Counted from the stretch's first letter, positions 1 to 16,093 are shown. The stretch: 64,000 nucleotides of DNA from Patescibacteria group bacterium (GCA_049322955.1 JBMOPU010000012.1:19581-83580), one strand, 5' to 3'. The notes: generated by a model not told the origin, from the letters alone. Program-made: numbers and translations.

Positions 1-1064
1 ATGGTAGATCGTGAATGTAAAAAAATTTCAGTTAGTTGTTTGCCCTCAAGCTTCATATAGGTATCCAAAACACCCTTTAACAAATCTCTGGCAGCTGTTT
101 TTGTTAAATGAAATTGTTTATCATCTGGTGAATACCATGGCCCAAACTCACCCAAAAACACAACGCCGTCTCCCGTATTTAAGAACATTTGAGCTGCACA
201 ACACGCGGTATTACCTTCGCCTGTTAATCTAAAACAAATTCCTATATAACAAACACCTTCACGAGCACTTACAAGCTTCCATGGTTTACCTCCACATTTA
301 TAATATATGGTGGAATTCAAATTCCACATGCGATCAGACAATGGTGTTAAGCGCCTTTCACCAAAGGCGTAGTTATCGTCAGTTTTTAGTGTTGACTCGC
401 GTATTATTTGAATCGGAACATCATATTCCATTGCTCTTGCTTTTATTTGTCTTCTAAAATCAGGTGACATGAGATATTGGTTAGGATCATAGTTTTCAAT
501 TAAACCCAATTGACCGGATTTCCGCTTTGCTAATTCCTTTGGAGAGATTCTTGTTCCAATTGGATTAACTACGTGTGATTGAGTACGACAATTAAGCCAA
601 ACTTCATCGGGCACGACACAGATGACAACACCAATTTTTTCATCCATCTTTTTTAGCTTCTCTAGTCCCTCGAGGTACAAATCTACTACTTGAAATGCAC
701 GCTCACTTGCATTTCTTTGAATTGAGGCGGCGTGTAGATTTTTATCATCGATCTCATGTACATATACTGGTTTGGGCGAAAACTCCGAGTTAAATGCAGC
801 TTCAAAACCTGGGTAAGGGGGCCATATTTGTGTTCGGTCTTTTGGTGCGAGAACAGCTGGATTATTGATAATACTTACCCAATTTAAGTATTTTTGAATC
901 CCCATTTTTGTACCGATTGTTATATAAGAGATAGTTTTTGGGTGTGTACTAATATCAGAATCGTAAGGACCAAATAAGGATAATCCATCTCTCGGATCGA
1001 TCACTCTCTGACCGTATCGAAATTCTAATTCTGGTTCATCAAAAACTACTATTGGGTTACTCAT
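1..1064 (-). CDS. short prokaryotic Argonaute (MID-PIWI), predicted catalytically inactive; 3' end lies beyond window start
   Basis: Manual translation of minus strand from ATG at 1064..1062 is open through position 1, at least 354 aa; not in ORF track because there is no in-window stop. PIWI-type motif YYKCGGKPWKL (K-x-GG-x-x-W) is followed by GVCYIGICF, where the canonical GxDVxH aspartate is replaced. The start overlaps the stop of the upstream gene (ATGA). Confidence 0.6.
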   Translation of the reverse strand, partial: MSNPIVVFDEPELEFRYGQRVIDPRDGLSLFGPYDSDISTHPKTISYITIGTKMGIQKYLNWVSIINNPAVLAPKDRTQIWPPYPGFEAAFNSEFSPKPVYVHEIDDKNLHAASIQRNASERAFQVVDLYLEGLEKLKKMDEKIGVVICVVPDEVWLNCRTQSHVVNPIGTRISPKELAKRKSGQLGLIENYDPNQYLMSPDFRRQIKARAMEYDVPIQIIRESTLKTDDNYAFGERRLTPLSDRMWNLNSTIYYKCGGKPWKLVSAREGVCYIGICFRLTGEGNTACCAAQMFLNTGDGVVFLGEFGPWYSPDDKQFHLTKTAARDLLKGVLDTYMKLEGKQLTEIFLHSRST

Positions 1065-2839
1065 GCGTCATCTCCTTCTAAACTATCTACTTCAGTATCT
1101 TCTCTTTCAAAAGATTCAGGAGTCAAAGTTGTTTCATTAATTCCTTTGGGGGAGCTTAATATTATTGGCTCTGCGTCGATTATTATCGTGTCATCATCAT
1201 TCGTGCCTATTACTATTTTTTTATCCACTGCTAAAAACTCACATATTGCTAACAATCTTGTCAGCCATTCTCTATTCCACCAGTCTTTACATAAATCTTT
1301 TCGACGACCGTTAGCTTGATGGCCTGGAAGCGCATTTCCTACGATATCAGTAATATGAATCCTCGCTCTAACAAGGATTGTATAAGAATTAGCAATAGAT
1401 TTAGATATTGAAAACGTAGGCGCTAAATAGTATATGTATTGTTCTTTTGAAGCGCTCCTTCGGTATTTTCTTATACCAGAAGCGTTTATACGATTAATTT
1501 TTCCGCTCTGAGCTGTGTAGGTTAACGCATCGTTTTTAAGTAATCCTGAAGGAAAATAGACCATCCTTGCTGCTTTGTCATAGACAAGGCCTTTTTTTGA
1601 ACAATACACTTGAAGCGATTTACGTAATAATTCTGAAACTAAGTACGATGGATTAATTTCAAGTATTTTTTCTGTAGATGTCCATTCAATTTTTTCGATA
1701 TTAATATCATACTTTTGAACTAATTCAGATGGTGGATAGGAAAAACTCACCAATTTTTCACCAATAATCCTAAATGCCCAACTATCGAAATATTGAGTTA
1801 ACTCTTCATAATCAATTTTGGTTTTAGGGGAACTGACTAATAATTCTCCGGGTATTCTCTCAACTGTTAAGCAATTACTGATTAGCTGTTCCGTTTTATC
1901 TGTAATTACGCCCCTGTTCAAATAAAAGTTAGCGGCGATATTTTTGCCGTCCAATACAGACTTGGGAATTTTAAGAGATGTTAATTTTTTTAATAACTGG
2001 TCTAGCCCCTTTGCCCAATTCTCAAATGGAATCATGACAAGTTGGCTTGAAAAAGCATCTAGTTTATCTTGCGGCAGATTATCTTTCTTAAGAGGTATTA
2101 GAAATTCAATCTTCTGTTTTTTGCTAATATTCACAGCAAGAGACCGTTGTCTCACTATTTCAGCGTTACTCAGTGATTCCAATGAATATATTGATATTAC
2201 ACACGCCGCTTTAGAATCTATTGCCGTGTCGATATCGTCAGGATATTTCTCGCCACCTAAAAGCTTAAATCTTTCATACCAAACCGAATAACCCTCTGAA
2301 GTTAATTTGCGTACTAACCAATCAGCTAACGCTATATCACTTTTATCACAAGAAATTAATATGTTATTTTTTATCTTTTTGGTGGTGTCTATAAAAAAGT
2401 CATTTCTAAAAACCTGAGGATAATTGCCCTTGATTTCGGGATGTTGAGCATCAAGTAAATTTCTTAGCCGTTCTATGTCATAAATCTCCAAATCCCAGCC
2501 GTATTTCGATTTTATTATCATCTTTAATGAATCTCTCTCAGAAGCTGTAACATCTGAAGTAGTTACAAAAACATACTTCTCACACTTATGTCCATGTTTA
2601 ACAATTTTGTCTGCATCCTCAAATAGTTTCGCCTGCCAATCTTCTCTAACGCTATAAGAAAAAACTGTAGTCGTATTCTTTTTATCGACATGTACTGCAT
2701 CTCTACCTTTATCTTTAAATCCTCCTAATGGCTCTATTTCTGGATAACCGCTTACCGACAGCACATCGTCACAAAGACGCTCAAACTCAGCATAGTCAGT
2801 AAGTTCTTTTAAACAAAATGTGGTTAAGTTTGCACTCAT
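1061..2839 (-). CDS. Mrr-like nuclease-fold / TIR / APAZ-like multidomain protein (SPARTA TIR-APAZ partner)
   Basis: 592 aa. N-terminal segment FERLCDDVLSVSGYPEIEPLGGFKDKGRDAV resembles the Mrr restriction-endonuclease core. Central TIR-like block SCDKSDIALADWLVRKLTSEGYSVWYERFKLLGGEKYPDDIDTAIDSKAACVISIYSLESLSNAEIV. Long C-terminal region consistent with APAZ. TGA stop overlaps the pAgo ATG. Confidence 0.6.
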   Translation of the reverse strand: MSANLTTFCLKELTDYAEFERLCDDVLSVSGYPEIEPLGGFKDKGRDAVHVDKKNTTTVFSYSVREDWQAKLFEDADKIVKHGHKCEKYVFVTTSDVTASERDSLKMIIKSKYGWDLEIYDIERLRNLLDAQHPEIKGNYPQVFRNDFFIDTTKKIKNNILISCDKSDIALADWLVRKLTSEGYSVWYERFKLLGGEKYPDDIDTAIDSKAACVISIYSLESLSNAEIVRQRSLAVNISKKQKIEFLIPLKKDNLPQDKLDAFSSQLVMIPFENWAKGLDQLLKKLTSLKIPKSVLDGKNIAANFYLNRGVITDKTEQLISNCLTVERIPGELLVSSPKTKIDYEELTQYFDSWAFRIIGEKLVSFSYPPSELVQKYDINIEKIEWTSTEKILEINPSYLVSELLRKSLQVYCSKKGLVYDKAARMVYFPSGLLKNDALTYTAQSGKINRINASGIRKYRRSASKEQYIYYLAPTFSISKSIANSYTILVRARIHITDIVGNALPGHQANGRRKDLCKDWWNREWLTRLLAICEFLAVDKKIVIGTNDDDTIIIDAEPIILSSPKGINETTLTPESFEREDTEVDSLEGDDA

Positions 2840-2944
2840 TTAGTTACATTAACAATGCAGTTTGGTAAATCAGAATCTGCTGTTTGCAGTCTATAACTAT
2901 TGAAACTTTTGTCAACCTATTTAGTGTTCAATTAGGTTAGCCGG

Positions 2945-2953
2945 TGATATAAT
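2945..2953 (+). promoter_or_regulatory. extended -10 promoter element (TGaTATAAT)
   Basis: Sequence tgatataat at 2945-2953 in the divergent intergenic region between the SPARTA operon and the 3105 gene. Confidence 0.3.
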
Positions 2954-2954
2954 C

Positions 2955-3079
2955 ACTTCGAATCAGCCTAGAAGCTGTGCCGCGAGTAATCGCGGTGCTT
3001 TCATTGGATCTAATAAGGGGCAACCCAAACGGATCCAATGCTTCTAGGCTGAGGAATACGCGGGTTGTCCCTTTTTATT
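2955..3079 (+). ncRNA. candidate structured small RNA or cis-regulatory leader ending in a terminator-like hairpin
   Basis: Nested inverted repeats: cagcctagaagc ... gcttctaggctg; ccgcgagtaatcgcgg; cattggatc ... gatccaatg. A 10-bp stem ggggcaaccc / gggttgtccc (one G-U) at 3017-3071 is followed by tttttatt. Confidence 0.3.
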
Positions 3080-3104
3080 GTTTGACAACTCCAAAGGAGG
3101 ATAT

Positions 3105-3821
3105 ATGGATTCCATTCAGCCGGAGCAGACAAAACCAAATACCAGTCTGCTGAAAGTATTCTTGGCGGTTATTTTCTTTCCATTTACGATCAGCTATCTC
3201 ATTTGGAAACAAACACAATTTCCAACCCTCGTCCGTGTTCTCGGGATACTCATTTTCTGGGGAGTGTTTATAAAAATTGGATCATCAGGATCTAGTACGT
3301 CTAGTACAACAACGGGAAATAATAATACGGAGGTAGTTGCTACAAAAGCACCTACGCCTACAGTTGTAGTCATAACCCTAGAACAGAAACAAACAGATTT
3401 CAAAGAATTGTACAAAAAATATCAGTCGGGTGCACAAGGAATGCTCCTCGTACAGGTAGCCATTCAAAAGATAGCAAGTACAGCAACGAGCAAAGCGGAT
3501 TTGTATCTAGCACTGGATAAAGTTGAAAAAACTCAATCCGCGATAGCATCGGCAAACTCTGACATTAATACACCAAATTCTTTAAAAGAGTATAAACAAA
3601 TAAGTGAAGCACTCATGAATTTTCAAATTGCCGGAAATAACTTTACAGATGCGATAAAAAAGATGAAGGAATATGTGAATAAAGATGACCTTGAAAAACT
3701 GACCCAAGGAAAAGAGCAAATTGATCGTGGAACAGCAAGGCTCAGTGCGAGTAAAGATCTAATGGATGCGGTAGCTAAAACTTTAGAAGTAGATGTAACC
3801 CAAATACAAGGAACAAAATAA
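3105..3821 (+). CDS. hypothetical membrane-anchored protein (N-terminal TM helix, Ser/Thr-rich linker, helical C-domain)
   Basis: ORF with AAGGAGG RBS 6 nt upstream of ATG at 3105; the ORF-track start at 3078 is a TTG. One predicted TM segment (LLKVFLAVIFFPFTISYLIW). Confidence 0.5.
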   Translation: MDSIQPEQTKPNTSLLKVFLAVIFFPFTISYLIWKQTQFPTLVRVLGILIFWGVFIKIGSSGSSTSSTTTGNNNTEVVATKAPTPTVVVITLEQKQTDFKELYKKYQSGAQGMLLVQVAIQKIASTATSKADLYLALDKVEKTQSAIASANSDINTPNSLKEYKQISEALMNFQIAGNNFTDAIKKMKEYVNKDDLEKLTQGKEQIDRGTARLSASKDLMDAVAKTLEVDVTQIQGTK

Positions 3822-3840
3822 ATAGATTAATCCAAAATGT

Positions 3841-3893
3841 TGTCATTACTGTCATAATGTCATTCTTGTGTTCCGGCATGAAGCGTTTGTCAT
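3841..3893. repeat. tandem TGTCAT motif cluster (operator-like)
   Basis: tgtcattac tgtcataa tgtcattc at 3841-3863, plus a further tgtcat at 3888. Confidence 0.4.
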
Positions 3894-4391
3894 TTCCCCC
3901 TTACCCCCATGGGTATTCAAGCAGTTGATTGATATGTATTCAATCTTTGCTTTAGGATGGATTTTCCAACATTGGCTTCTTATACGTTCCGTATATGTGA
4001 GCTGAAATCGTCTTTCACCGTTTGTTGATCTTCGGTGTTCCCTTGGCTTACGAATTCTTTTAAGTTGTCATTGCCTGCCACCACACGTGGACTTTAGACT
4101 ATTTTAACTGGTAGTCGGAGAGATTTTTCAAAAACTATCATTTTCATCTAGAGCTAAGAGATAGCCTAAGCCGTATTCAGGGTCACCGCCTTTTGAATAC
4201 AAAATCTGATCTCGAGGTCACGAGACCATTCATTCTGAAGCTATTTTGCATAGGATATATAATCTACCATCCTTAGTAAAACAAAGACTCGAGTGTCATC
4301 AGGGAGACCTGAGCATATGTCCTCAGCCATAAGTAACGGTAGCCAAAAACGCTATTACTAAAAATTACTCGGGAGAAATTCAGACTTACGT

Positions 4392-4509
4392 GGATAGTTG
4401 AGCGTCTTGTCCATGAAAAAAATAGGATTGGGGTGGTTGTAGGCAACGGATACAAGATGTATCCACTTCAAAGCTAAGTTATCCGTGTCACTGGATACAA
4501 AACTTATCC
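4392..4509. repeat. iteron-like array of GGATAC / TTATCC half-sites in alternating orientation
   Basis: ggatag 4392, ggataca 4448, gtatcca 4460, ttatcc 4480, ggataca 4494, ttatcc 4504. tgtatccac resembles a DnaA-box variant. Confidence 0.35.
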
Positions 4510-4545
4510 AAGCATTATTTGCTGAATAGTTCCATCATAATGAAA

Positions 4546-5049
4546 TTAGGGTCTTATGTTATTCCATTTATCCTCATAGGATCCGGCCATTGGCACGTTG
4601 AAATTATACTCCTCATAAAAAAGCCCAAGACGGAAAGTGCGTACCGTGCTTTCTTTTGTTGCGCCTTTTGTTTCCATCCATGCTTTATGTTCATAGTACA
4701 AATACTGCGTTACGACATTGTTTGGAACGATAAAATATCGATATTTATATGTTGATTTATCAAAATGAACAAACACATAAAAATAGCTATCATCAGTTCG
4801 ATCCTCATCTTTCTTACTTAATATCCATGTTAGGCATTTGCCGAATATTTTGGAGTTTAATATACCTGCATCGGTATACATGATTGATACCGTAGAAACG
4901 GTTCCTTGTGTGCCACGGACCACCATTGTGATTCTACTACCATTTGTTGGTTTTATTTCAGTCGAATAACCATGAAAGAAAAATTGCTCAATGATATTAA
5001 ATAGCCCTATTTTCCTATCCGGATCGAAATTGTGAATTTTTGTCCTCAT
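4546..5049 (-). CDS. hypothetical protein (island cargo)
   Basis: 167-aa ORF in the AT-rich island; no recognisable motif. Confidence 0.45.
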   Translation of the reverse strand: MRTKIHNFDPDRKIGLFNIIEQFFFHGYSTEIKPTNGSRITMVVRGTQGTVSTVSIMYTDAGILNSKIFGKCLTWILSKKDEDRTDDSYFYVFVHFDKSTYKYRYFIVPNNVVTQYLYYEHKAWMETKGATKESTVRTFRLGLFYEEYNFNVPMAGSYEDKWNNIRP

Positions 5050-5066
5050 ACCATATATAGATTACA

Positions 5067-6224
5067 TTAATTACTGCGTTTCATCAGTATTCGAAATATC
5101 CACAAGTTTTTCTTTCTGTCAAACTGCCATTCTACATTGTCCTTAATTCTATGCTTTGGTTCAATAATCGTGCTTCGAATGTTGGTTACCGTTTCACCGA
5201 TTTTTGTAACTACCTCGATTTCTTCTTTGTTTACGAGTTTATAACTTTCGCATATCTGTTTTATTGTGTAGCGACCAGTATTATCCTTTTTCCACAAATC
5301 CCAAAACGCTTCAAACATTTTTCTACTTTTGTCAGCTCGTGAGAAATCAAATTGGTCAGTTGATCCATCAGTAAGCCTAAATATCAATTGTGAATTTTCA
5401 TACGTATATGATCTATCAGTTGGCGTCACAAAAAGACTTCGAGTGCTTGATAATTTAAATCGTTCCCTGATGGTTTCGTTTGATAATGAATTCGTCTCTT
5501 TGAGCGCTATCGTCACACTATAGTTATATTTATTATCCTTATATTCAATCTCTAAGTCATACACGTCTATTACCCGAGCAATCCACAACGTCATGACCAT
5601 TTCCATAAATTTATAATCCGTATATTCTTCGTTCACAAAACTATATTTTTCTTTTAATAATCCCATCAGATCTTTTGGAGATATTAATAGGTACTTCGGG
5701 TTATAAATCCGTAATACTTTATCCATATATTCCCTGAATATATCCAAATGCGTATTGAAATTAATATCTCGACCATTGCCAACAAGTTCATCATCCACAA
5801 ATAACGATATATATTGATTGATAATCGATTCAAGATGCTTTGCCTGAGTTTTGGTGTTACTGAGCGTTATTGTCAACGGAATTTGATCAACATTTTCACT
5901 CTTGATATCGTTTTTGGATTTTAAATACTTCGAAAAAGAACTGAATAAGTCCTTATAGCACTCGATTTTATCTGCCTCTTTTAACGGTCTGATAATCTCA
6001 CGCCTTCTCACTACTGTGCTTATGCTTGCGATATCCCAAAGAATGCTTAAGCTGTTATTGCTTTTTCGATTAAACACGGTCGTATCCACAAAAGAAGAAA
6101 AATTTGGATAACTACTTCGAGGTAGCTCAATATTGTCCAATCTATTTTTGGTCTTGAGCAAGGTTTCCAACGTCAAATAGAGTTGATTTGGATGAAAAAA
6201 GTGATGCAAGTGCATTGACCTCAT
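5067..6224 (-). CDS. hypothetical protein (island cargo)
   Basis: 385-aa ORF 18 nt upstream of the 167-aa ORF on the same strand; no recognisable motif. Confidence 0.45.
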   Translation of the reverse strand: MRSMHLHHFFHPNQLYLTLETLLKTKNRLDNIELPRSSYPNFSSFVDTTVFNRKSNNSLSILWDIASISTVVRRREIIRPLKEADKIECYKDLFSSFSKYLKSKNDIKSENVDQIPLTITLSNTKTQAKHLESIINQYISLFVDDELVGNGRDINFNTHLDIFREYMDKVLRIYNPKYLLISPKDLMGLLKEKYSFVNEEYTDYKFMEMVMTLWIARVIDVYDLEIEYKDNKYNYSVTIALKETNSLSNETIRERFKLSSTRSLFVTPTDRSYTYENSQLIFRLTDGSTDQFDFSRADKSRKMFEAFWDLWKKDNTGRYTIKQICESYKLVNKEEIEVVTKIGETVTNIRSTIIEPKHRIKDNVEWQFDRKKNLWIFRILMKRSN

Positions 6225-6272
6225 TATATTTCCTCGATCCCTTAATCACAAATCTATCGCTCATTTCTATTT

Positions 6273-6350
6273 ATGACGTCATAAACGATGTCATACGGCT
6301 TATTATGACAGCCTTCCGCACAAACTGCCCCATTGACTTCCCGATGTCAT
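6273..6350. promoter_or_regulatory. TGTCAT / palindromic ATGACGTCAT motif cluster in divergent promoter region
   Basis: atgacgtcat (6272-6281), gatgtcatac (6287-), atgaca (6305-), gatgtcataa (6343-). A ttgact -35-like hexamer follows before the 6400 ATG. Confidence 0.4.
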
Positions 6351-6399
6351 AAAAAATTACTTGACTTAGTACAAACATTTATTTCAAGAAAGGGAAAAT

Positions 6400-6738
6400 A
6401 TGAAAAATATTAGAGGCACATTTAAAGCAACTTTAATTAGCTTCAATTCCGTTGAAGTAAAAAGTGCTTATGTTGGAGAACATGGTTTTATAGAAGCTTA
6501 TTGGTTTGAACTTAATCTTAGAGATGGTTTCACCAAAATACTCCCATATATTCTTGACTACACATATGAGCTTTGGGAAGCAAAAAACGAATATTGGACA
6601 TTGACCCAACCTCTTAGATCATACAAAAACTCTTCTGATAAGGAACTCATTGGAACTACCTGCAGGGTTTCAGCAATTACAGACGATGAGGGTTTTCCCA
6701 TCTCTATCGACTTCATTTTATCAAAAAATAATAAATAA
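6400..6738 (+). CDS. hypothetical protein
   Basis: 112-aa ORF downstream of a ttgact / AT-rich promoter-like region. Confidence 0.45.
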   Translation: MKNIRGTFKATLISFNSVEVKSAYVGEHGFIEAYWFELNLRDGFTKILPYILDYTYELWEAKNEYWTLTQPLRSYKNSSDKELIGTTCRVSAITDDEGFPISIDFILSKNNK

Positions 6739-6763
6739 AAAATTTTTCTTGAAAGGAAAACAT

Positions 6764-8572
6764 ATGAACAATATAACTACAGAACAATATTTAAAAATTG
6801 CCAAATCTTATCTCGATTTTGGGTTCTCAATAATACCAATTGGAGCAGATAAAAAACCATTGATTAAATGGACTGAATATCAAAAACGACAAGCAACTGA
6901 TAATGAGGTGCAACAATGGATTACGTTTCCCAATCTGAATGGATTTGCGGTAGTGACTGGTCAAATATCAAACGTGTTTGTTTTAGATTGCGATGCTGGG
7001 TATAAACTGGACGATTTTGACCTTCCTCCGACACCCATGGTCAAAACCGGATCAGGTATCCATATCTATTTCCGCTATCCGAAGGCGTATCGGATAACAA
7101 ACACAACACAACTTCTTCCTCATGTCGACATCAGAGGAGAGGGTGGTTACGCCATACTCCCTCCCTCCCTCCATTCTTCTGGCGTTCGATATGAGTGGAT
7201 CAATAATCTTTCCACTCCTATAGTCGAAGCGCCGGAATGGTTACTAAAGCTTATAAAAGACAAAGCGAATGATGATAATTCAAATCCTCCTATTGCAGAA
7301 ATTGCTCAAGGCGTAGGAGAGGGTGGCAGAAATGATAGTGCCACTCGAATCATTGGCACTCTGCTAGCATACCAACCAGCAGAACATTGGCGAACAGTTA
7401 TATGGCCACTTATTCACACATGGAATACCAACAATCACCCTCCACTTTCTGGGTCAGAACTTGCTAACACATTTAAATCCATCGAGAAGCGTGAGTTAAC
7501 CAAAAGAAACAATCCGTCACTCAGTCAGAACATATATAGTCATGACCAAGTGACTGATACTCAATTTGAGTGTGTCGCTTTTTCAGAACTGATGGATAGG
7601 CACTTTAGTGACGATATCTGGACTGTTGATCATTTAATTCTTGAAAATGGCATCAACTGCATTGCAGGAAAACCCAAAAGTGGAAAGAGCTTTGTTGTCC
7701 TCCAAATGGCAAAGAATATTGCCGAGGGAAAACCTGTATTTGGAAAATACAAAACCAAGCAATCAAACATTCTCCTCATCACAAAGGAAGACAGCCTGCG
7801 TTTGCTTAAAATGCGGTTGGTTAATTTTGGTTCAAACAAAGATTTACCAATTTCATTCTCCATAGATTCAGATATTTATCTGGACAATAATCAATATCTG
7901 AACTCAATTCTTCAGAAATGTCGTGATCTTGACACTAAAATAGTCATTTTTGATAGCTTTCGCAGATTCATGCGAGGAGACGAAAACAGCTCTGCAGACG
8001 TTTCAAAACTTCACTGGTTTTTTAAACATCTGAATGACGCTGGAATAACCGTCATTTTCAATCACCATTTCAGAAAAGGGAATGTAGTATCCACGGACTC
8101 CTTCCGCGGATCATCCGATATTCACGCCATGGTAGATACCGCCATGGTGCTGGAATTAGATAAAGAACTCAACATCATTCAAGTCACACAAAATGCGTGC
8201 CGGGAAGCAGAGGAACAAAAACCATTTTCAATATCTATTCCAAAGTTTATAGATACTGACAGGGAATTCAAAATCGTTAACGCCTGTATTCAAATACAAA
8301 AAAGCGCTCATGATCAGGCAATTGAAGATGTTCTTAATTTTCTCCAAAAACAAAGCGAGCCAATCAATCAAAAAATGATTATTGAGGCATTGGTAAATCC
8401 AAATAGTCCATATAAAGGTACTTACGTCAAAAAAGCACTTGAAAGGCTTGCGGGTGTTGGCCGTGTCATTGCTCGTAAACAAGGAAATAAAACCTTTTAC
8501 TCACTTTCTGAGCATCAGTCACTCAGTCAAACCAGTAATGGTGATGACGAAGTGACGGATGAAATCATATGA
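6764..8572 (+). CDS. bifunctional primase-polymerase (prim-pol) N-domain fused to P-loop (RecA/DnaB-like, AAA_25-type) helicase/replication ATPase
   Basis: Prim-pol motifs: FSIIPIGADKKPLIKW, VVTGQISNVFVLDCD, KTGSGIHIYF, DIRGEGGYAILPPS. Walker A GKPKSGKSF and Walker B IVIFDSF. Start chosen at ATG 6764 with aaagga RBS; the ORF-track start overlaps the upstream ORF. Confidence 0.7.
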   Translation: MNNITTEQYLKIAKSYLDFGFSIIPIGADKKPLIKWTEYQKRQATDNEVQQWITFPNLNGFAVVTGQISNVFVLDCDAGYKLDDFDLPPTPMVKTGSGIHIYFRYPKAYRITNTTQLLPHVDIRGEGGYAILPPSLHSSGVRYEWINNLSTPIVEAPEWLLKLIKDKANDDNSNPPIAEIAQGVGEGGRNDSATRIIGTLLAYQPAEHWRTVIWPLIHTWNTNNHPPLSGSELANTFKSIEKRELTKRNNPSLSQNIYSHDQVTDTQFECVAFSELMDRHFSDDIWTVDHLILENGINCIAGKPKSGKSFVVLQMAKNIAEGKPVFGKYKTKQSNILLITKEDSLRLLKMRLVNFGSNKDLPISFSIDSDIYLDNNQYLNSILQKCRDLDTKIVIFDSFRRFMRGDENSSADVSKLHWFFKHLNDAGITVIFNHHFRKGNVVSTDSFRGSSDIHAMVDTAMVLELDKELNIIQVTQNACREAEEQKPFSISIPKFIDTDREFKIVNACIQIQKSAHDQAIEDVLNFLQKQSEPINQKMIIEALVNPNSPYKGTYVKKALERLAGVGRVIARKQGNKTFYSLSEHQSLSQTSNGDDEVTDEII

Positions 8573-8808
8573 GACTTAGTTTAAAAGCGATCTCAGAGTT
8601 TAAACAAATTTATAAAAACCAATTTGGTGTTGACCTAACCGAAGACGAAGCTAATACCAAAGGCTTGGAGTTACTGGGATTTTTCCAATACCTTTCTAAG
8701 CCAATACCCAAAGAAAATGAGCTGTATTTTCTTTCGCTTAGTGTTGAAAACGGAGCGTCTAATCGAGCTATGTACAATATCAAACAAACTGATAATAATA
8801 GACTATAG
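8569..8808 (+). CDS. hypothetical protein (translationally coupled, ATGA overlap)
   Basis: 79-aa ORF whose ATG overlaps the upstream TGA. Confidence 0.4.
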   Translation: MRLSLKAISEFKQIYKNQFGVDLTEDEANTKGLELLGFFQYLSKPIPKENELYFLSLSVENGASNRAMYNIKQTDNNRL

Positions 8809-8844
8809 GACTATGGTAATGAGCATCTATATTCAAAATCAAAT

Positions 8845-9120
8845 ATGAACCATGACATCAACTATTTTATATACTGCTCTCCTCATCAATCATTTTCAAA
8901 ACAGGAATCTGATCTGATTACATTTGCTGAAAAGGAAGAATTGAATGTCGTGGGTATATATTTTGGAACTTTTAGATCAATGCTTTTCCGTATTCAAAAA
9001 AGTGAGGCACAAGGCGTCATAGTCTCTGATATTACCGACCTACCAATTACACCATTATTTACTTCGCTTATATCAAAAAATCTCATTCGAGATATCAAAT
9101 ATCTAACTCAGTCCAAATAA
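8845..9120 (+). CDS. hypothetical small protein
   Basis: 91-aa ORF immediately upstream of the recombinase. Confidence 0.35.
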   Translation: MNHDINYFIYCSPHQSFSKQESDLITFAEKEELNVVGIYFGTFRSMLFRIQKSEAQGVIVSDITDLPITPLFTSLISKNLIRDIKYLTQSK

Positions 9121-9124
9121 TCGT

Positions 9125-10963
9125 ATGAATACGGATGCCACGAAACCAATCAAATATATTATGTACTGCCGAAAAAGCAGTGAGGGTGATGATAGACAAG
9201 CAGCCTCTCTTCCTGCGCAGAAAAGAGAACTTATTGACCTGCAAGAAAAAGAAAACCTAAAAGTCATCAAAGTAATAGAAGAAGCTCAGTCCGCATACCA
9301 CAAAGGTAGGCCACAATTTAGTCAGATGATCAATGATGTCCGAACTGGTAAAGCAAACGGTATTCTCGTTTGGAGCTTAAACAGAGTTACCAGAAATACC
9401 AATGACCACAACCTGATTGTAGAACTAATGAATGATGGATGTTTACGACGCATAACTACACCAAACAAATCCTACAACAATAATGCTGATGATATAGTGG
9501 CTATGGAAATGGATTTTATAAACTCAAAATGGTATTCAGCTAAGTTAAGCGAGGTCGTTAGACGAGGTAATAGACAAAAATTTTTAGTAAAGAAAGAATG
9601 GTCTGGATTAGCTAAACCAGGATATAAAAACGAATTTGACCAACAATTAAGAAAAAACATACTTGTTGTAGATGAAGAACGATTTCAATTGCTCCGAAAG
9701 GCGGCATTACTCATAATTAATGGTACACATACCGCTGGACAAGCCTTACACACCCTAAATGAGAAGTGGGGCTTTAAAACAAGATATATAAAAGTAAATG
9801 GTGGCAAGAAATTCTCAAGAACTTCTTTTTATGCATTCTTAAGCGACACCTATTATTATGGTCTTATGAAAAGAAAATTTGACGGTAGAGATTATACCGT
9901 TATGGGCGAACACAAACCAATGTTTACTGAGGAAGAATTTGATTTACTTCAAATCAGGCTCGGAAAAAAGGGGCTGCCACACCAATCCAAGCATGACTTT
10001 CCGTACAAAAGCGCTCTAAAATGTGGTGGATGCGGTGGATCAGTGACCGCTCAGGAGAAGTGGCAAGTAATCTGTCCTGACTGCAAGTTAAAGTTCCATA
10101 AAGGAAGATTAACCAATTCGTGCCCACAATGCAGCATCAAAATTGAGGACATGATCAAACCAAAGGTGCTTCATTATATATATTATGGCTGTGTCAAAAA
10201 AGTCCACCCAGAATGCACCGAGAAGCATATCAGGGTTGAAAATATCGAAAAAACCATAGATGAAGAACTCAAGAAATTTGAAATACCCAAAGAATTCACC
10301 CTTTGGGCCATAAAGTATCTCCAAGAGGTCAATACAGTGACCGAGAATGATCAAAGTGAGCGTCTGAAATATTTACACAAACAACAGGTGGCATGTCTTG
10401 CCCAAATTCAAAACTTAGTCAATCTCAAAACCAGATCGGACAATGTGGATGGCTCTATCCTCTCAGACGACGAATTTGTAGCTCAAAAGAAAAAACTGAA
10501 CACGGAGGCAGAAAGTATAACCTCGCAGATCAAACATGCGGATACTCAGGTGAATAATTGGGTATATTTGACGGAAGAAACCTTTAAATTTGCTTGCTTC
10601 GCAAGATACTGGTTTACCAAGGGTGATATCAAAACCAAGACCTATATTTTAAGCAAACTCGGTAATAACCTATTGATAAAAGACGGAAAACTATTGGTAG
10701 ATCAATCTAAAGCATTCTTTTTGATACAATCAGGTTATGACTCTGTAAAGAGTTTGGCCAATAAGTTGGAACCTAACTTGGAGGTTATCACACCAACCCA
10801 AATGCTCTCTCTCGAACCTGTTTGTAAACTATGGCGGAGGAGACAGGACTCGAACCTGCGTGGGATTGCTCCCGCGCGCTTTCCAAGCGCGTGCCGTAGC
10901 CGCTGGGCCACTCCTCCAAGGAAATTTATTATACCATCTTTGGCGCTTATCACGGTGCTATAA
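9125..10963 (+). CDS. large serine recombinase (phage-integrase type)
   Basis: N-terminal resolvase catalytic motif YCRKSSEGDDRQAASLPAQ. Cys-rich zinc-ribbon region CGGCGGSVTAQEKWQVICPDCKLKF...CPQC. Coiled-coil C-terminal part. The ORF's last ~45 codons read through the tRNA-Ser gene. Confidence 0.75.
   Translation: MNTDATKPIKYIMYCRKSSEGDDRQAASLPAQKRELIDLQEKENLKVIKVIEEAQSAYHKGRPQFSQMINDVRTGKANGILVWSLNRVTRNTNDHNLIVELMNDGCLRRITTPNKSYNNNADDIVAMEMDFINSKWYSAKLSEVVRRGNRQKFLVKKEWSGLAKPGYKNEFDQQLRKNILVVDEERFQLLRKAALLIINGTHTAGQALHTLNEKWGFKTRYIKVNGGKKFSRTSFYAFLSDTYYYGLMKRKFDGRDYTVMGEHKPMFTEEEFDLLQIRLGKKGLPHQSKHDFPYKSALKCGGCGGSVTAQEKWQVICPDCKLKFHKGRLTNSCPQCSIKIEDMIKPKVLHYIYYGCVKKVHPECTEKHIRVENIEKTIDEELKKFEIPKEFTLWAIKYLQEVNTVTENDQSERLKYLHKQQVACLAQIQNLVNLKTRSDNVDGSILSDDEFVAQKKKLNTEAESITSQIKHADTQVNNWVYLTEETFKFACFARYWFTKGDIKTKTYILSKLGNNLLIKDGKLLVDQSKAFFLIQSGYDSVKSLANKLEPNLEVITPTQMLSLEPVCKLWRRRQDSNLRGIAPARFPSACRSRWATPPRKFIIPSLALITVL
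10832..10917 (-). tRNA. tRNA-Ser (anticodon GGA)
   Basis: Manual fold of reverse complement. GGAGGAG acceptor, class-II long variable arm, anticodon loop TTGGAAA, T-arm GGTTCGAGTCC, encoded CCA. Confidence 0.85.
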
Positions 10964-10964
10964 T
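10956..10964 (+). promoter_or_regulatory. extended -10 (TGcTATAAT) giving a leaderless transcript for the EamA gene
   Basis: tgctataat ends 6 nt before ATG 10971. Confidence 0.35.
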
Positions 10965-10970
10965 CACCAC

Positions 10971-11870
10971 ATGAGCGTACGAAGAAAGGCGTTTTTGGGG
11001 CTAATACTTGTTTCGATATTGTGGGGAACGGCAGGTGTTACGGCCAAAATGCTAATTACCGAGCTCCATCCTTACGTGCTCCTGTTCTACCGATTCGGAC
11101 TTGCCTCCCTTATTTTTCTTCCCTGGTTTTTGCGGGCACACAAACCGGCGAATATGTGGCGGACACTTATTCCGTTTAGCCTATTAAGTATAGGAAATGC
11201 GCTGTTTTTTTATCTCGGCATTGTGCACACCTCCGCAAGCGCGGCCTCCGTTATCAATACCAGTACGCCGCTCCTTACGGCGCTTTTTTCTCATTTCCTG
11301 ATAGGCGAACGGACGCACAAAGAGAAAATATTGGGGGTAATCGTCGGACTTATCGGCACACTCATCATCATTCTTCTCCCGCTTTGGAATGAAGGCCGGA
11401 GTATCGGCGGAAGCATCACCGGAAATCTTCTTATTTTACTTTCCGTCGTCAGCTGGACACTGTACCTGGTAGGATCCCGTAAATTTATTTCGCAGGAAAC
11501 TTTTTCTCCCGTGGTGATGACGGAAATAAACTTTCTCACCCTGACGTTTTTTAGTCTGATAATGGCGATCGCAACCGGGCAATCGTTTGTTACCGATGCG
11601 CTCTACACTCCCTCGTATTTCTTCCTGTTACTGTATGCCGCAATCCCTGTTACCGTCGTCACGTTCGGAATATTCCAATGGGTCATTAAGCATATTTCCG
11701 CAACCACTGCGTCGCTCAAAGATTACATTCAGCTGGTTATTAGTGTCGGATTGTCTATCCTTATCCTGGGTGAACGATTGAACGCGATTTTTATTTTCGG
11801 AAGCGGTATTGTGGTTTTCGGCCTTATCCTTGCCTCACACAAGGCTATTTTGCGAATTCTTCGTGGATAG
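10971..11870 (+). CDS. EamA/DMT-superfamily transporter
   Basis: Ten-TM profile with duplicated EamA-like halves. The ORF-track N-terminal extension through the tRNA was rejected. Confidence 0.65.
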   Translation: MSVRRKAFLGLILVSILWGTAGVTAKMLITELHPYVLLFYRFGLASLIFLPWFLRAHKPANMWRTLIPFSLLSIGNALFFYLGIVHTSASAASVINTSTPLLTALFSHFLIGERTHKEKILGVIVGLIGTLIIILLPLWNEGRSIGGSITGNLLILLSVVSWTLYLVGSRKFISQETFSPVVMTEINFLTLTFFSLIMAIATGQSFVTDALYTPSYFFLLLYAAIPVTVVTFGIFQWVIKHISATTASLKDYIQLVISVGLSILILGERLNAIFIFGSGIVVFGLILASHKAILRILRG

Positions 11871-12441
11871 CATCGCGAATATCTTTCCACCAGTCTTGAG
11901 AATCGGTATCCGCAAGCGCGCGCATGAGGGCAACTGATTCGGGAAGGCGAACGCGGAGTGAGTTCGCATCCATCCATTCCTTTGCATGGGAATTGCCTTT
12001 TTCCATGAGGATACGGCACTCGACACCGAAGGCGATAACATTGGCCTCATAGACGATCTGTGCCTCAAGCGTTTGCTTTTCCTCATATTCGTTCAAGGTA
12101 GCAAGAAGCGCATCATCCACTCCCTGAAAAATATCCGCGTTGGCCTTATCTTCATGGCGCGTCATATAGCGCTTTGCCATTTTATCCATCTCACCAGTGC
12201 GCCCCTCATGAAAATCATGAAAGATACTCATGATGAGCACCTTTTCCATCGAGACCATTCGTTGGGAATCACCAGAAGCGTTTATTTCTTTTGCCAAAAA
12301 GTACGCAATGACGGCGGTCATAAATGAATGTTCGCCTACTCCCTCTTCATTGTCTCCCAATCGTTGCCATCCGGTACGGAGCATCCGCTTCACATTGGCG
12401 GCTTCGTAGATAAGATTGGTCAGTCTTTTTTGATCATCCAT
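11845..12441 (-). CDS. HD-domain phosphohydrolase (YfbR-like 5'-deoxynucleotidase family)
   Basis: Motifs RTGWQRLG, EHSFMTAVIA, HDFHE. Start set at MDDQKRL (ATG 12441..12439). Confidence 0.6.
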   Translation of the reverse strand: MDDQKRLTNLIYEAANVKRMLRTGWQRLGDNEEGVGEHSFMTAVIAYFLAKEINASGDSQRMVSMEKVLIMSIFHDFHEGRTGEMDKMAKRYMTRHEDKANADIFQGVDDALLATLNEYEEKQTLEAQIVYEANVIAFGVECRILMEKGNSHAKEWMDANSLRVRLPESVALMRALADTDSQDWWKDIRDAIHEEFAK

Positions 12442-12459
12442 AGAGATAGTATAGCTTTT

Positions 12460-12534
12460 TGGTACTCTCGACGGGAGTCGAACCCATATCACAGCCTTCG
12501 GAGGGCCGCATTCTATCCATTGAACTACGAGAGC
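12460..12534 (-). tRNA. tRNA-Arg (anticodon CCG)
   Basis: Manual fold: acceptor GCTCTCG, anticodon loop CTCCGAA, T-loop TTCGACT, encoded CCA. Confidence 0.8.
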
Positions 12535-12641
12535 AATATATATCCATTGTCAGCCAAAGGCTGATCGGCCTTTGGCCGAAACTACGAGAGCGACAAGCGT
12601 ATTATACCGCCCTTTCAGGCACTCTGCTAGAATGGGATCAC

Positions 12642-14732: not shown

Positions 14733-15145
14733 CGGCTGATACGGGAGATATCTCCGTCTAAAACGATGGGCTGAATCGCATGCATTTCGGTTTTGTAATC
14801 CATATCGGGAACCGGAAAAAGTAAATAGACCTTCTTCCCTAATCCGAATGCATATCCCATCTCAAGGAACGTGTTCCCGCCGATATAACCGGGAATCCCC
14901 TTCTTTTCATAATTTAAAATAAGAATGGCGTCTGCTTGTTCGATCTTTCGAAAATGCTCCCTGATAAAATCGTATTCGATTTTTACGGTAATTCGTTCTT
15001 CATCGGAATCCATATAGGATTCGTTTTTGTGGATATCATCCAGTTCTCCCGGAACAAACACCTGATACCCCGCGGCTATGAGCGTATCGCGCATTGCCGC
15101 CATCTCTTTATGAAATTGCATGCTCCCGCAAATGGTAATGGTCAT
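14729..15145 (-). CDS. nucleoside 2-deoxyribosyltransferase-like (PF05014-like) small Rossmann protein
   Basis: ICGSMQF...AGYQVFVP...NTFLEMGYAFGLGKKVYLL pattern. Confidence 0.45.
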   Translation of the reverse strand: MTITICGSMQFHKEMAAMRDTLIAAGYQVFVPGELDDIHKNESYMDSDEERITVKIEYDFIREHFRKIEQADAILILNYEKKGIPGYIGGNTFLEMGYAFGLGKKVYLLFPVPDMDYKTEMHAIQPIVLDGDISRISR

Positions 15146-15162
15146 AGTAATGTATGCTCCTT

Positions 15163-15252
15163 TGGCGGAAGGAGCGAGATTTGAACTCGCGTGGGCCTTT
15201 CGACCCCCAAGGTTTTCGAGACCTGGCCGTTTAGCCGCTCCGGCATCCTTCC
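15163..15252 (-). tRNA. tRNA-Ser (anticodon CGA)
   Basis: Manual fold: acceptor GGAAGGA, class-II variable arm, loop CTCGAAA, T-loop TTCAAAT, encoded CCA. Confidence 0.85.
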
Positions 15253-15309
15253 ATGCAACTTAGGGCTGTGCCGGGATCGCCGGTTCCGTCAGTGCTCCCG
15301 TATTATACT

Positions 15310-15744: not shown

Positions 15745-15760
15745 GATAATAAATAAATGT

Positions 15761-16093
15761 CTAGGTCTTTCGGGAAATTTCCGTATAAAGCACGATACTT
15801 GTCGTACCGACAAGTCCCCAAAACAACGGCATCCATAGAGGTATATTCAAAACCTGCGGTGTAACATAACTCCACGCGCGGCCGATATTTACCATGAGTA
15901 TCTCTACAATTGCTCCTCCGATTGTCAGTCCAGCATACCAGTAAAACTCACGCGCAATGGGAAGGAGCAGGCGCTTAACAAGTGCCAACGCAATAAGGAG
16001 GACCGACAGTACCAATGCCTGCTTCCAGAGGAAGATAATGCTTGCGATCGCGGCAAGGAGAATACTTAAGGCGATAAAAAAACGGGAAGACAT
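15761..16093 (-). CDS. small hypothetical membrane protein
   Basis: 110 aa, three hydrophobic helices. Confidence 0.4.
   Translation of the reverse strand: MSSRFFIALSILLAAIASIIFLWKQALVLSVLLIALALVKRLLLPIAREFYWYAGLTIGGAIVEILMVNIGRAWSYVTPQVLNIPLWMPLFWGLVGTTSIVLYTEISRKT

What the first reader, a model, noticed from the sequence alone, without database searches (positions are those of the whole stretch)
1..10963. AT-rich mobile island ending at tRNA-Ser(GGA), with the recombinase ORF reading through the tRNA
Base composition changes abruptly at about 10.83 kb. The first 10.8 kb is visibly AT-rich while everything downstream is around 50% GC or more. The island encodes a large serine recombinase, a prim-pol/P-loop replication protein, a defence pair and orphan genes. 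The recombinase ORF continues about 45 codons through the antisense tRNA-Ser gene, suggesting integration into or next to the tRNA and a hybrid C-terminus. A 10-nt copy of the tRNA segment (ctcgaacctg, 10811-10820) lies 38 nt from the original.
Basis: partly seen in the sequence, partly recalled or inferred. Interest (0 to 1): 0.7.

Follow-up and report, generated by a model that had tools for sequence, protein, structure and literature searches.

The report
Serine-integrase island inserted into tRNA-Ser
The AT-rich first 10.8 kb of the window is the right-hand part of a roughly 12-kb mobile element that a large serine integrase inserted into the last bases of a tRNA-Ser gene of a Patescibacteria bacterium; the integrase gene has no stop codon of its own because the recombination site lies inside it, an arrangement shared by a whole, so far undescribed clade of tRNA-targeting serine integrases.

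Summary
GC is 0.370 for 1-10831 and 0.501 for the rest, with no overlap between 1-kb windows. tRNA-Ser(GGA) lies at 10832-10917 (minus strand). The 612-codon large serine recombinase (LSR) ORF 9125-10963 runs 132 nt through and past it.

The island is a defence-carrying integrative element: a short pAgo plus REase-TIR-APAZ pair, a Prim-Pol/helicase replicase and the LSR. It extends beyond the window's left edge.

A sister island at the same site in the same species (L088) is 12,296 bp. It is flanked by the 8-bp repeat TGGCGGAG, with the tRNA's displaced terminator at the far end.

In 136 non-redundant relatives, 96 LSR ORFs overlap a convergent tRNA 3' end, 96 of 97 in the same frame. Fifteen reconstructed attP sites are dyad-symmetric about tRNA nt 72/71 (window 10836-10837). 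Their P' arm carries a T-arm-like motif 5 bp further out than in the tRNA, which is the known LSR attP/attB rule.

So attP lies inside the integrase gene and integration swaps its C-terminal tail. The window's tRNA-encoded tail is predicted disordered. The 10-nt "copy" is not a duplication scar.

New variant of a known kind. Whether the tail swap regulates anything is untested.

The parts
1..1064 (-). N-terminal two thirds of a short prokaryotic Argonaute gene (497 aa in full; the stop codon lies 429 nt left of the window)
   Evidence: L001 447-1940 is the same sequence, with window position 1 = L001 877. PADLOC pAgo_I 2.5e-168. NCBI name 'argonaute/piwi family protein' MFZ5534602.1.
1061..2839 (-). 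REase(Mrr)-TIR-APAZ partner of the short pAgo (SPARTA-type defence pair; the two genes overlap by 4 nt)
   Evidence: Pfam TIR_2 2.6e-13 and Mrr_cat 5.7e-5. PADLOC Aga_REase-TIR-PNTD1-PNTD2 3.3e-75.
3105..3821 (+). 238-aa protein of unknown function, conserved in the sister islands
   Evidence: Called gene in L001, with 236-aa counterparts in L004 and L005. No Pfam, PHROG or PADLOC match.
4546..6224 (-). Two orphan genes (167 aa at 4546-5049; 382/385 aa at 5067-6224), in the variable middle of the island
   Evidence: No family match. This stretch has no DNA counterpart in sister island L004.
6400..6738 (+). 112-aa orphan gene upstream of the replicase
   Evidence: Called gene in L001. No family match.
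6764..8572 (+). Replicase: Prim-Pol + PriCT_1 + AAA_25 helicase-like P-loop + C-terminal winged helix (602 aa as called)
   Evidence: Pfam 4.8e-27 / 6.7e-10 / 3.7e-21. PHROG DNA polymerase/primase 1.2e-35.
8569..9120 (+). Two small genes between replicase and integrase (79 aa at 8569-8808; 91 aa at 8845-9120). They are conserved in all three sister islands. The 91-aa product resembles the integrase N-terminal domain without its catalytic motif. Candidate regulators or a directionality factor (inferred).
   Evidence: Gene tables. BLASTP of the 91-aa product against the integrase N-terminus: 27% over 82 aa, E 4e-5.
9125..10963 (+). Large serine recombinase ORF as it stands in the integrated state. 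Residues 1-570 (up to Trp570, TGG 10832-10834) are element-encoded and conserved. Residues 571-612 are translated from the antisense tRNA and spacer.
   Evidence: AlphaFold2 model pLDDT 87 overall but below 50 for 572-612.
10806..10831 (+). P arm of the hybrid site (attR), lying inside the last codons of the integrase gene. TGTAAA at 10823-10828 mirrors TTTACA in the P' arm of the sister island.
10832..10839 (+). Core identity block TGGCGGAG (antisense of tRNA nt 69-76), with the inferred crossover dinucleotide GG at 10836-10837
   Evidence: 8-bp direct repeat at both ends of sister island L088. Identity blocks of 17 attL/attR pairs intersect at x3-x6. attP dyad symmetry peaks at x5/x6.
10832..10917 (-). 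tRNA-Ser(GGA), intact. Its last 5 nt (nt 72-76, including CCA) are supplied by the element.
   Evidence: L183 shows another element supplying a non-CCA end at the same tRNA.
10847..10856 (+). B' arm motif GACTCGAACC (antisense T-stem and T-loop), the likely zinc-ribbon-domain recognition motif in attB
   Evidence: The corresponding motif RTTAGAACC in P' arms lies exactly 5 bp further from the core in 17 sites; other shifts score 0-2. This is the rule established for LI integrase (PMC3783163).

Best explanation
Window 1-10836 is the integrase-proximal part of an integrative, self-replicating element of at least 11.7 kb (about 12 kb by analogy with its sister island). It resembles an integrated plasmid or satellite and has no virion or conjugation genes.

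It sits in a Patescibacteria chromosome and was inserted by its own large serine recombinase into the 3' end of tRNA-Ser(GGA). The recombination site of the free element (attP) lies inside the integrase gene. The P arm is formed by the last roughly 8 conserved codons. The crossover dinucleotide is the GG at 10836-10837, which corresponds to tRNA nt 72/71. The P' arm, together with the natural end of the ORF, lies at the other end of the element.

The chromosomal partner (attB) consists of the tRNA acceptor 3' strand plus the T-arm (B' arm) and the sequence just downstream of the tRNA (B arm). In this species the B arm is the tRNA's terminator hairpin.

Integration has four consequences. It rebuilds the tRNA with 5 element-derived nucleotides. 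It moves the terminator about 12 kb away. It leaves an 8-bp repeat, TGGCGGAG. It fuses the integrase ORF to antisense tRNA sequence, so the integrated gene makes a protein with a different, unstructured tail. That tail is 42 residues here and 3-60 residues in most relatives.

Shown: the junction anatomy, the family-wide pattern, the symmetry centre and the 5-bp motif shift. Inferred: that the enzyme catalyses this reaction, that the free form is a replicating circle, and any regulatory effect of the tail swap or of convergent tRNA transcription.
For: The island is foreign and variable. GC is 0.370 against 0.501. A mosaic sister island occupies the same site in the same species, and another occupies it in a second species.

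No other recombinase is present in the window or in the complete 12.3-kb sister island.

The integrase looks intact. All family-invariant residues are present, including R16/S18 and four Cys. The AF2 model shows the catalytic domain, recombinase domain, zinc ribbon and a long coiled coil. The nearest solved relative is SPbeta integrase.

Both ends are defined in L088. TGGCGGAG lies at 12,296 bp spacing, GC jumps from 0.36 to 0.50 there, and a hairpin plus T-run follows on the host side.

The ORF reconstructed across P + core + P' ends ...WRRTIYSVITYFKTTVLSPEQLNYIPILT*. A real metagenomic protein, P0005 (65% identical integrase), ends ...WRRTIYDVITYFKTTVLSPEQLNYNLNLSLS.

Family-wide pattern: 96 of 136 non-redundant loci have the ORF overlapping a convergent tRNA (Ser 31, Gln 27, Asn 18, Met 8 and ten other isotypes), and 96 of 97 share one frame. 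About 62 of 120 homologous proteins have antisense-tRNA tails.

Seventeen attL/attR pairs were found, with identity blocks of 7-11 bp. The blocks intersect at x3-x6. Islands are 6.1-12.3 kb.

attP dyad symmetry scores 90/225 at x5/x6, against 40-74 at 19 other centres and 56 expected.

The P' motif lies at +5 in 17 sites, against 0-2 for every other shift. This matches the LSR attP/attB geometry.

The Thr codon inside the motif is ACC in 17 of 17 sites despite AT-rich genomes, so the constraint acts on the DNA.

Contigs L180 and L184 start exactly at TGGCGGAG, which means an assembly branch point lies at the junction.
Against: The left end of the window's own island could not be retrieved, so its size, its attL and its excised-form tail rest on the sister island.

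No circular contig and no empty attB site was found.

The P0005 junction could be a tandem junction rather than a free attP. L033 and L022 show that a second element can insert between an older one and the tRNA.

The P arm shows the mirrored inner repeat but no mirrored copy of the outer motif. attB shows no clear symmetry.

The 8-bp repeat alone is not statistically significant. Its support comes from the accompanying features.

No experiment shows activity.
Confidence: 0.82

Rival explanations
1. The tail swap is a built-in switch. Only the free element encodes the full-length integrase, with its natural 'DVRTY...' C-terminus. After integration the enzyme carries a junk or shortened tail. 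In addition, the tRNA promoter, having lost its terminator, transcribes antisense through the integrase gene. Together these lock the element in, or change directionality.
For: The architecture is conserved over integrases only 28-40% identical and over 14 tRNA isotypes, always in one frame. Excised-form tails are homologous across the family (DVRT[YF], and in a subset F[FE]IP). No convincing terminator follows the tRNA on the minus strand inside the island; there are only 5-6-bp stems about 600 nt or more downstream. The tRNA has its own TATAAT box 12 nt upstream of its 5' end and points into the island (my reading of the sequence).
Against: The most conserved part of the excised-form tail is explained by a DNA constraint, the P' motif with a fixed ACC codon. 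Beyond that motif the tails vary. Integrated tails range from 3 to more than 60 residues with no common feature. The window's tail is predicted disordered, as expected for a by-product. There are no expression or activity data.
Confidence: 0.25
2. The read-through is a pure by-product with no consequence. The protein is functionally complete at about residue 570, and whatever follows the core is tolerated.
For: Conservation in the family stops at the Trp/Leu codon that overlaps CCA. pLDDT is below 50 from residue 572. Integrated tails differ freely with the tRNA.
Against: This does not explain why no member of the clade has acquired a stop codon before the core, nor why the frame is fixed in 96 of 97 loci. 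One possible reason is that the P arm and core must code and cannot hold a stop.
Confidence: 0.5
3. The island is a fixed, no longer mobile remnant, or the integrase is inactive.
For: No empty site and no circular form was seen. The identical island occurs in several samples.
Against: The integrase is full-length with all invariant residues. Three or four different elements occupy the same tRNA in one species. Assemblies break exactly at the junction.
Confidence: 0.12
4. This is a classical tRNA island made by a tyrosine integrase, with the serine recombinase as a passenger (resolvase or invertase).
For: tRNA 3' ends are the classical targets of tyrosine integrases (Mageeney et al. 2020).
Against: No tyrosine recombinase is present in the window part or in the complete sister island. 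The repeats are 7-11 bp rather than the longer tRNA fragments typical of tyrosine-integrase islands (the typical length is my own knowledge). The serine recombinase gene itself abuts the tRNA in 96 independent loci. The sites have LSR geometry.
Confidence: 0.03

Closest known systems
Large serine recombinases / serine integrases (phiC31, Bxb1, A118/LI, SPbeta SprA)
   Same: Domain order is catalytic domain, recombinase domain, zinc ribbon with a coiled-coil insertion. Sites are short with a central dinucleotide and dyad-symmetric attP. The outer motif lies 5 bp further out in attP than in attB.
   Different: At most 24% identical to any integrase in the phage or plasmid collections. The target is a tRNA gene 3' end, not a protein gene or intergenic site. 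attP lies inside the integrase ORF. The identity between attP and attB is 7-11 bp. The left arms show little symmetry.
Serine-integrase islands in t(m)RNA genes noted by TIGER (Mageeney et al. 2020, NAR, PMC7192596)
   Same: That survey found 14 of 297 serine-integrase elements at t(m)RNA genes and stated that such use 'has not been reported previously' and needs proof.
   Different: Here it is not a handful of cases. It is a coherent clade (96 non-redundant loci, 14 isotypes) with site anatomy. It is mostly in Patescibacteria, which were hardly represented in that set of complete genomes.
Classical tRNA-integrating genomic islands with tyrosine integrases (P4-like, Islander class)
   Same: The integrase gene sits at the island edge next to the tRNA 3' end. 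The tRNA is restored by element sequence. A displaced tRNA fragment marks the far end.
   Different: The enzyme family and chemistry differ. The restored segment is only 5 nt and the repeat 7-11 bp. The integrase is convergent with the tRNA and reads into it.
SSV1-type archaeal integrases and mycobacteriophage integration-dependent immunity (BPs, Brujita)
   Same: attP lies inside a coding sequence (the int gene in SSV1, the repressor gene in BPs), so integration changes the gene product. This comparison rests on my own knowledge, not on a tool result.
   Different: Those systems use tyrosine recombinases. SSV1 splits int in two. In BPs the truncated product is the repressor and the effect was shown experimentally. 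Here only the last 25-40 codons of a serine integrase are exchanged, and no effect has been shown.
SPARTA / short pAgo with (Mrr-)TIR-APAZ
   Same: The cargo genes match the PADLOC class I short-pAgo models for both partners, and the two genes overlap.
   Different: This is only cargo, and it is cut by the window edge. Its function was not examined.

Membership tests
Large serine recombinase (serine integrase) | N-terminal resolvase-type catalytic domain with the nucleophile Ser and conserved Arg residues | tested here: met
   Pfam Resolvase 6.9e-17 over residues 12-151. R16, S18, R62, R87 and R90 are invariant in 86 sequences and present here.
Large serine recombinase (serine integrase) | Recombinase domain and zinc-ribbon domain with Cys ligands | tested here: met
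   Pfam Recombinase 21.0 bits (cut-off 21.1) and Zn_ribbon_recom 19.9 bits (cut-off 25.3) are sub-threshold in this protein. Both are annotated on most homologues. C300, C303, C356 and C364 are invariant. PHROG 95 'integrase' 3e-53 covers residues 4-527.
Large serine recombinase (serine integrase) | Coiled-coil insertion in the zinc-ribbon domain | tested here: met
   The AF2 model has two long helices, 389-436 and 448-499, with pLDDT of at least 82 in every 10-residue block of this region (82-95).
Large serine recombinase (serine integrase) | Short att sites, dyad-symmetric attP, crossover at a central dinucleotide | tested here: met
   Symmetry across 15 reconstructed attP sites peaks at x5/x6 (90/225 against 40-74 elsewhere), inside the intersection of the identity blocks. 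This is computational only.
Large serine recombinase (serine integrase) | Zinc-ribbon motif 5 bp closer to the centre in attB than in attP | tested here: met
   Right arms: shift +5 in 17 sites, 0-2 for all other shifts. The rule comes from PMC3783163. Left arms: no mirrored motif found.
Large serine recombinase (serine integrase) | Separate recombination directionality factor for excision | not testable with these tools
   Two conserved small ORFs (79 and 91 aa) lie upstream of the integrase and are candidates only.
tRNA-integrating genomic island (Islander class) | Island abuts the 3' part of an intact tRNA gene, with a displaced tRNA fragment at the distal end | tested here: inconclusive
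   The right junction is met in the window. The distal repeat is seen only in sister island L088 (8 bp) and in 16 other pairs. The window's own left end was not retrievable.
tRNA-integrating genomic island (Islander class) | Tyrosine integrase | tested here: not met
   No Phage_integrase hit in the window part or in the L088 gene table. The only recombinase is of the serine type.
Genes changed by integration (attP inside an ORF) | The att core lies within the coding sequence, so excised and integrated forms encode different products | tested here: met
   There is no stop before the core in 96 of 97 loci. The reconstructed excised-form tail matches the real protein P0005 and the 'DVRT' tails of about 16 of the 120 listed homologues.
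Genes changed by integration (attP inside an ORF) | The change has a functional consequence | not testable with these tools
   The only indirect data are the disordered tail and the missing terminator.
SPARTA-type short pAgo system (cargo) | Short pAgo (MID-PIWI) encoded next to a TIR-APAZ protein | tested here: met
   PADLOC pAgo_I 2.5e-168 and Aga_REase-TIR-PNTD1-PNTD2 3.3e-75. The genes overlap by 4 nt.

The most novel reading that the evidence does not exclude
A large clade of serine integrases, mostly in Patescibacteria, has specialised on tRNA gene 3' ends by reading the acceptor/T-arm as its attB half-site. It keeps attP inside its own coding sequence as a self-regulating device. The free element makes the full-length enzyme. 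The integrated element makes a tail-swapped one from a gene that is also transcribed antisense from the tRNA promoter. Integration therefore reprogrammes the integrase itself, without (or in addition to) a separate directionality factor. Because the half-site is a tRNA, newer elements can stack in front of older ones.
Probability: 0.25. Interest if true: 0.8.

Novelty: new variant of a known kind. Interest (0 to 1): 0.62.

Why it matters
Serine integrases are the main tools for inserting large DNA segments, and their natural targets were thought to avoid tRNA genes. The one survey that saw a few such cases called them unprecedented and unproven.

This locus opens onto a coherent clade with about a hundred mapped junctions and 14 tRNA isotypes. 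It comes with a defined crossover position and a readable recognition logic: the T-arm serves as the zinc-ribbon motif, shifted 5 bp in attP. That provides a natural series of related enzymes with different, highly conserved targets, which is useful for studying how serine-integrase specificity evolves and for choosing enzymes.

It also shows how small integrative elements carrying defence systems (here a short pAgo system) move and stack in the tiny genomes of Patescibacteria.

There is a practical warning for annotation as well. The C-terminal 3-60 residues of these integrases in databases are antisense tRNA.

Tried and rejected
Left end of the window's own island:
- The look-up of encoding contigs with the leftmost window genes and with the pAgo never returned the 40.5-kb Logan contig beyond L001.
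- A protein search with the methyltransferase fragment L001:1-450 found nothing.
- No anchored repeat lies in L001 1-10001.

Free form:
- A viral-contig scan with the family alignment gave no relative.
- DNA of the P0005 contig was not available, and that contig was not among the metagenome loci.
- No locus has terminal overlaps.

Empty site: eight contigs with the identical EamA gene were examined and none is empty.

The 10-nt copy as an att scar was rejected. It is not conserved as DNA in the sister islands, where the changes are synonymous.

A mirrored copy of the outer motif in the P arm was not found, and attB shows no symmetry.

The idea that all 'DVRT' tails mark free circles was rejected. 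Some lie on 138-467-kb contigs, and at least L033 and L022 are tandem insertions with a second, distant integrase at the tRNA.

The candidate left end in L005 (10-nt match at 2173) lacks the P' motif and a composition change and was left open.

Literature searches for serine integrases at tRNA genes or in Patescibacteria found no description of this clade.
Full report
OBSERVATION. The compositional break is real and sharp. GC is 0.370 for 1-10831 and 0.501 for 10918-64000. The richest island 1-kb window (0.412) is below the poorest of 105 host windows (0.441). Third-position GC is 0.28-0.38 in island genes and 0.53-0.54 in the two host genes checked. ARAGORN and Rfam both find tRNA-Ser(GGA) at 10832-10917 on the minus strand. 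The ORF 9125-10963 (612 aa) has no in-frame stop before TAA at 10961-10963. It covers the whole antisense tRNA and 46 nt beyond it, 132 nt in all, and ends 7 nt before the start codon of the host EamA gene. CTCGAACCTG occurs only at 10811-10820 and 10849-10858 in the window.

WHAT THE GENES ARE. The ORF is a large serine recombinase (LSR). It matches Pfam Resolvase at 6.9e-17, with Recombinase and Zn_ribbon_recom just below cut-off. It matches PHROG 95 'integrase' at 3e-53. A profile of the family matches SPbeta integrase structures. The AlphaFold2 model (pLDDT 87) shows the catalytic domain, recombinase domain, zinc ribbon and a long coiled coil. Upstream, in the same orientation, lie a Prim-Pol/PriCT_1/AAA_25 replicase and two small conserved ORFs. 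On the other strand lie a REase(Mrr)-TIR-APAZ protein and a short pAgo. PADLOC scores them at 3.3e-75 and 2.5e-168, and NCBI names the pAgo 'argonaute/piwi family protein'. This is a SPARTA-type defence pair, and its pAgo gene is cut by the left edge of the window. No virion, conjugation or second recombinase gene is present. Homologue names and locus titles place the host in Patescibacteria.

THE ISLAND IS FOREIGN AND THE JUNCTION IS AT THE tRNA END. A Logan contig (L001) is identical to the window and adds 876 nt on the left, still island sequence. A second contig from the same species (L004, extended by L088) has 100% identical host flanks and the same tRNA. Its island is 76-85% identical at both ends and unrelated in the middle. 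A third version sits at the same tRNA in another species (L005). In the DNA alignment the window and L004 differ up to 10829 and are identical from 10830 on. In L088 the GC content returns to 0.50 at 12.3 kb from the tRNA. There the sequence reads ...TAGTT-CTCCGCCA-GAAAAGGTGCTCCGCCAAAACAGGGCGGAGCATTTTTTT. This is an 8-bp copy of the tRNA 3' end followed by a hairpin and T-run, the tRNA's original terminator. In window orientation the island is 12,296 bp between two copies of TGGCGGAG.

THE READ-THROUGH IS A PROPERTY OF THE CLADE. Aligned homologues are conserved up to a Trp (or Leu) codon that is the antisense of CCA. They then continue as 'RRGRDSNPR'-like peptides, the translation of antisense acceptor stem and T-arm. 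About 62 of 120 database homologues have such tails. I fetched 160 loci from genome and metagenome collections. Of 136 non-redundant ones, 96 have the ORF overlapping a convergent tRNA 3' end by 1-445 nt. One stops before a tRNA, 10 run off the contig, and 29 have no called tRNA, although several of those still have such tails. The targets are Ser 31, Gln 27, Asn 18, Met 8, Pro 3, Trp 2 and eight single isotypes. The reading frame relative to the tRNA body is the same in 96 of 97. No relative closer than 24% identity exists in the phage or plasmid collections.

WHERE THE CROSSOVER IS. I searched upstream of each integrase for sites that share at least 7 nt with the tRNA 3' end. In 17 such sites (15 loci) a 'T...AACC' motif lies exactly 5 bp further from the shared block than the T-loop AACC does in the tRNA. 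Every other shift from -8 to +15 scores 0-2. These sites are the far junctions (attL). The islands are 6.1-12.3 kb. The identity blocks are 7-11 bp and intersect at x3-x6, where x1-3 is TGG, the antisense of CCA. The reconstructed attP sites are dyad-symmetric about x5/x6, with 90 of 225 complementary pairs against 40-74 for 19 other centres and 56 expected. In the window's subfamily the mirrored elements are TGTAAA (10823-10828) and TTTACA in the distal arm. The crossover dinucleotide is therefore tRNA nt 72/71, which is GG at 10836-10837. The last 5 nt of the tRNA, including CCA, come from the element. Consistent with this, contig L183 shows another element at this same tRNA whose arm supplies CAG instead of CCA, with identity to the window starting at x3. 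The 5-bp shift is the geometry established for LI integrase, where the zinc-ribbon motif lies at positions 16-24 in attP and 11-19 in attB (PMC3783163). With the centre at x5/x6 the motifs here lie at 17-25 and 12-20. The P' motif (consensus RTTAGAACCTAT) is constrained as DNA: the Thr codon inside it is ACC in 17 of 17 sites in AT-rich genomes.

attP LIES INSIDE THE INTEGRASE GENE. Joining the P arm, core and P' arm of L088 gives an ORF ending ...LEPICKLWRRTIYSVITYFKTTVLSPEQLNYIPILT*. The real protein P0005 (65% identical integrase, 3.9-kb metagenomic contig) ends ...LESVCKSWRRTIYDVITYFKTTVLSPEQLNYNLNLSLS. In other subfamilies the reconstructed tails read '...VDDVRTYWQTT..FFIP..'. These are the tails of a second group of real homologues, about 16 of 120. 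The natural 3' end of the gene therefore lies at the other end of the element, 25-70 codons beyond the core, and integration exchanges it for antisense tRNA. In the window the exchanged part is residues 571-612, predicted disordered with pLDDT below 50.

NOT EVERY P-P' JUNCTION IS A FREE CIRCLE. Some such genes lie on contigs of 138-467 kb. In L033 and L022 a second, distant LSR (23% identical, 497 aa) abuts a tRNA-Asn 8-9 kb downstream. The first integrase reads across TTGCTCCCCC into what must be the left arm of the second element. Elements can thus stack: a newer one inserts between an older one and the tRNA. This fits the lack of symmetry or conservation on the non-tRNA side of attB. Several loci also carry two attL-like copies. 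P0005 may therefore be either a free attP or a tandem junction. No circular contig and no empty site was found. Two short contigs with the identical host gene start exactly at TGGCGGAG, which marks an assembly branch point at the junction.

THE 10-nt COPY. In L004 it reads CTAGAACCCA and in L005 CTGGAACCTA. These are synonymous changes in a conserved Leu-Glu-Pro motif. It is therefore not a duplicated tRNA fragment. GAACC is nevertheless kept, and it lies in the P arm at half-site positions about 19-23. A further conserved 'FEP' motif about 21 codons before the core is encoded by GTTCGAACCT in many relatives. Whether these T-loop-like sequences in direct orientation are recognised by the enzyme remains unexplained.

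MECHANISM AND ITS LIMITS. Shown: the junction anatomy in a sister island and 16 other pairs, the family-wide fusion to tRNAs in one frame, the symmetry centre, the 5-bp motif shift, and the alternative ORF ends. Inferred: that the LSR catalyses the reaction, that the free form is a circle replicated by the Prim-Pol protein, and that the small upstream ORFs act in control. One of them resembles the integrase N-terminal domain without its catalytic motif. Also inferred is any effect of the tail swap or of tRNA transcription running antisense into the integrase gene; only weak terminator-like stems are found there.

COMPARISON WITH WHAT IS KNOWN. The enzyme meets the defining features of LSRs. 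The island resembles classical tRNA islands in layout but lacks their tyrosine integrase. Mageeney et al. 2020 found 14 of 297 serine-integrase elements at t(m)RNA genes. They wrote that such use had not been reported and would need experimental proof. The LSR discovery paper of Durrant et al. does not mention tRNA. My searches found no description of this clade. attP inside a coding sequence is known for the SSV1 integrase and for mycobacteriophage repressors, both with tyrosine recombinases (my own knowledge). I rate this as a new variant of a known kind.

VERDICT. The finding is correct in observation and interpretation. Its value lies less in this single island than in the clade and site logic it reveals. 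The main gap is the unseen left end of this island, together with the absence of any direct evidence for excision.

Noticed in passing
window 17436-17519 (minus); also L008 12057-12146 and L011 11829-11917: A tRNA-Ser with anticodon ACT (A34) has a clean anticodon loop TTACTAA. It coexists with tRNA-Ser(GCT) 2 kb away. The same odd tRNA is present in related genomes and is itself an integrase target in L008.
   Followed up: partly
window 10832-19549: Five tRNA-Ser isoacceptor genes (GGA, CGA, ACT, TGA, GCT) and two tRNA-Arg genes lie within 9 kb, all on the minus strand. Some encode CCA and others do not. The other Ser genes share the (TG)GCGGA...TCGAACC 3' ends that relatives of this integrase use, but they are unoccupied here.
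   Followed up: partly
window 12459-14732 (+) versus tRNA-Arg(CCG) 12460-12534 (-): The longest ORF of the penicillin-binding-protein gene starts inside the antisense tRNA-Arg. It is called as 757 aa on one contig (L004) and 696 aa on another (L001). This is the same kind of antisense-tRNA ORF extension, here at an N-terminus and probably an annotation artefact.
   Followed up: no
window 8845-9120 (+): The 91-aa ORF directly upstream of the integrase resembles the integrase's own N-terminal domain (27% over 82 aa, E 4e-5) but lacks the RKSS catalytic motif. It is conserved in all three sister islands.
   Followed up: partly
L001 447-1940 (window 1-1064 plus 429 nt to the left): The short pAgo has more than 3,500 database homologues, the 120 best listed at 61-68% identity, in contigs from many phyla, including 4-6-Mb genomes. 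It has no Pfam domain on record. It is a very widely spread and unusually conserved defence gene, carried here by a 12-kb element in a roughly 1-Mb genome.
   Followed up: no
L033 18455-19948 and L022 about 18681-20105: A second, much shorter LSR type (497 aa, 23% identical) also runs into a convergent tRNA-Asn. tRNA targeting with ORF read-through therefore extends beyond the clade studied here.
   Followed up: partly
L046, L075, L146, L159, L165 (about 60-90 nt before the integrase core); window 10765-10777: The conserved 'FEP/LEP' peptide about 21 codons before the core is encoded by GTTCGAACCT, a direct copy of the P' arm motif and of the T-loop palindrome. Its role, if any, in site recognition is unexplained.
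   Followed up: partly
window 10918-10970: The 53-nt spacer between the tRNA and the EamA gene holds two divergent TATAAT boxes. One lies 12 nt before the tRNA 5' end. The other lies 8 nt before the EamA ATG, so that mRNA would have almost no leader. The integrase ORF ends inside this promoter region.
   Followed up: no
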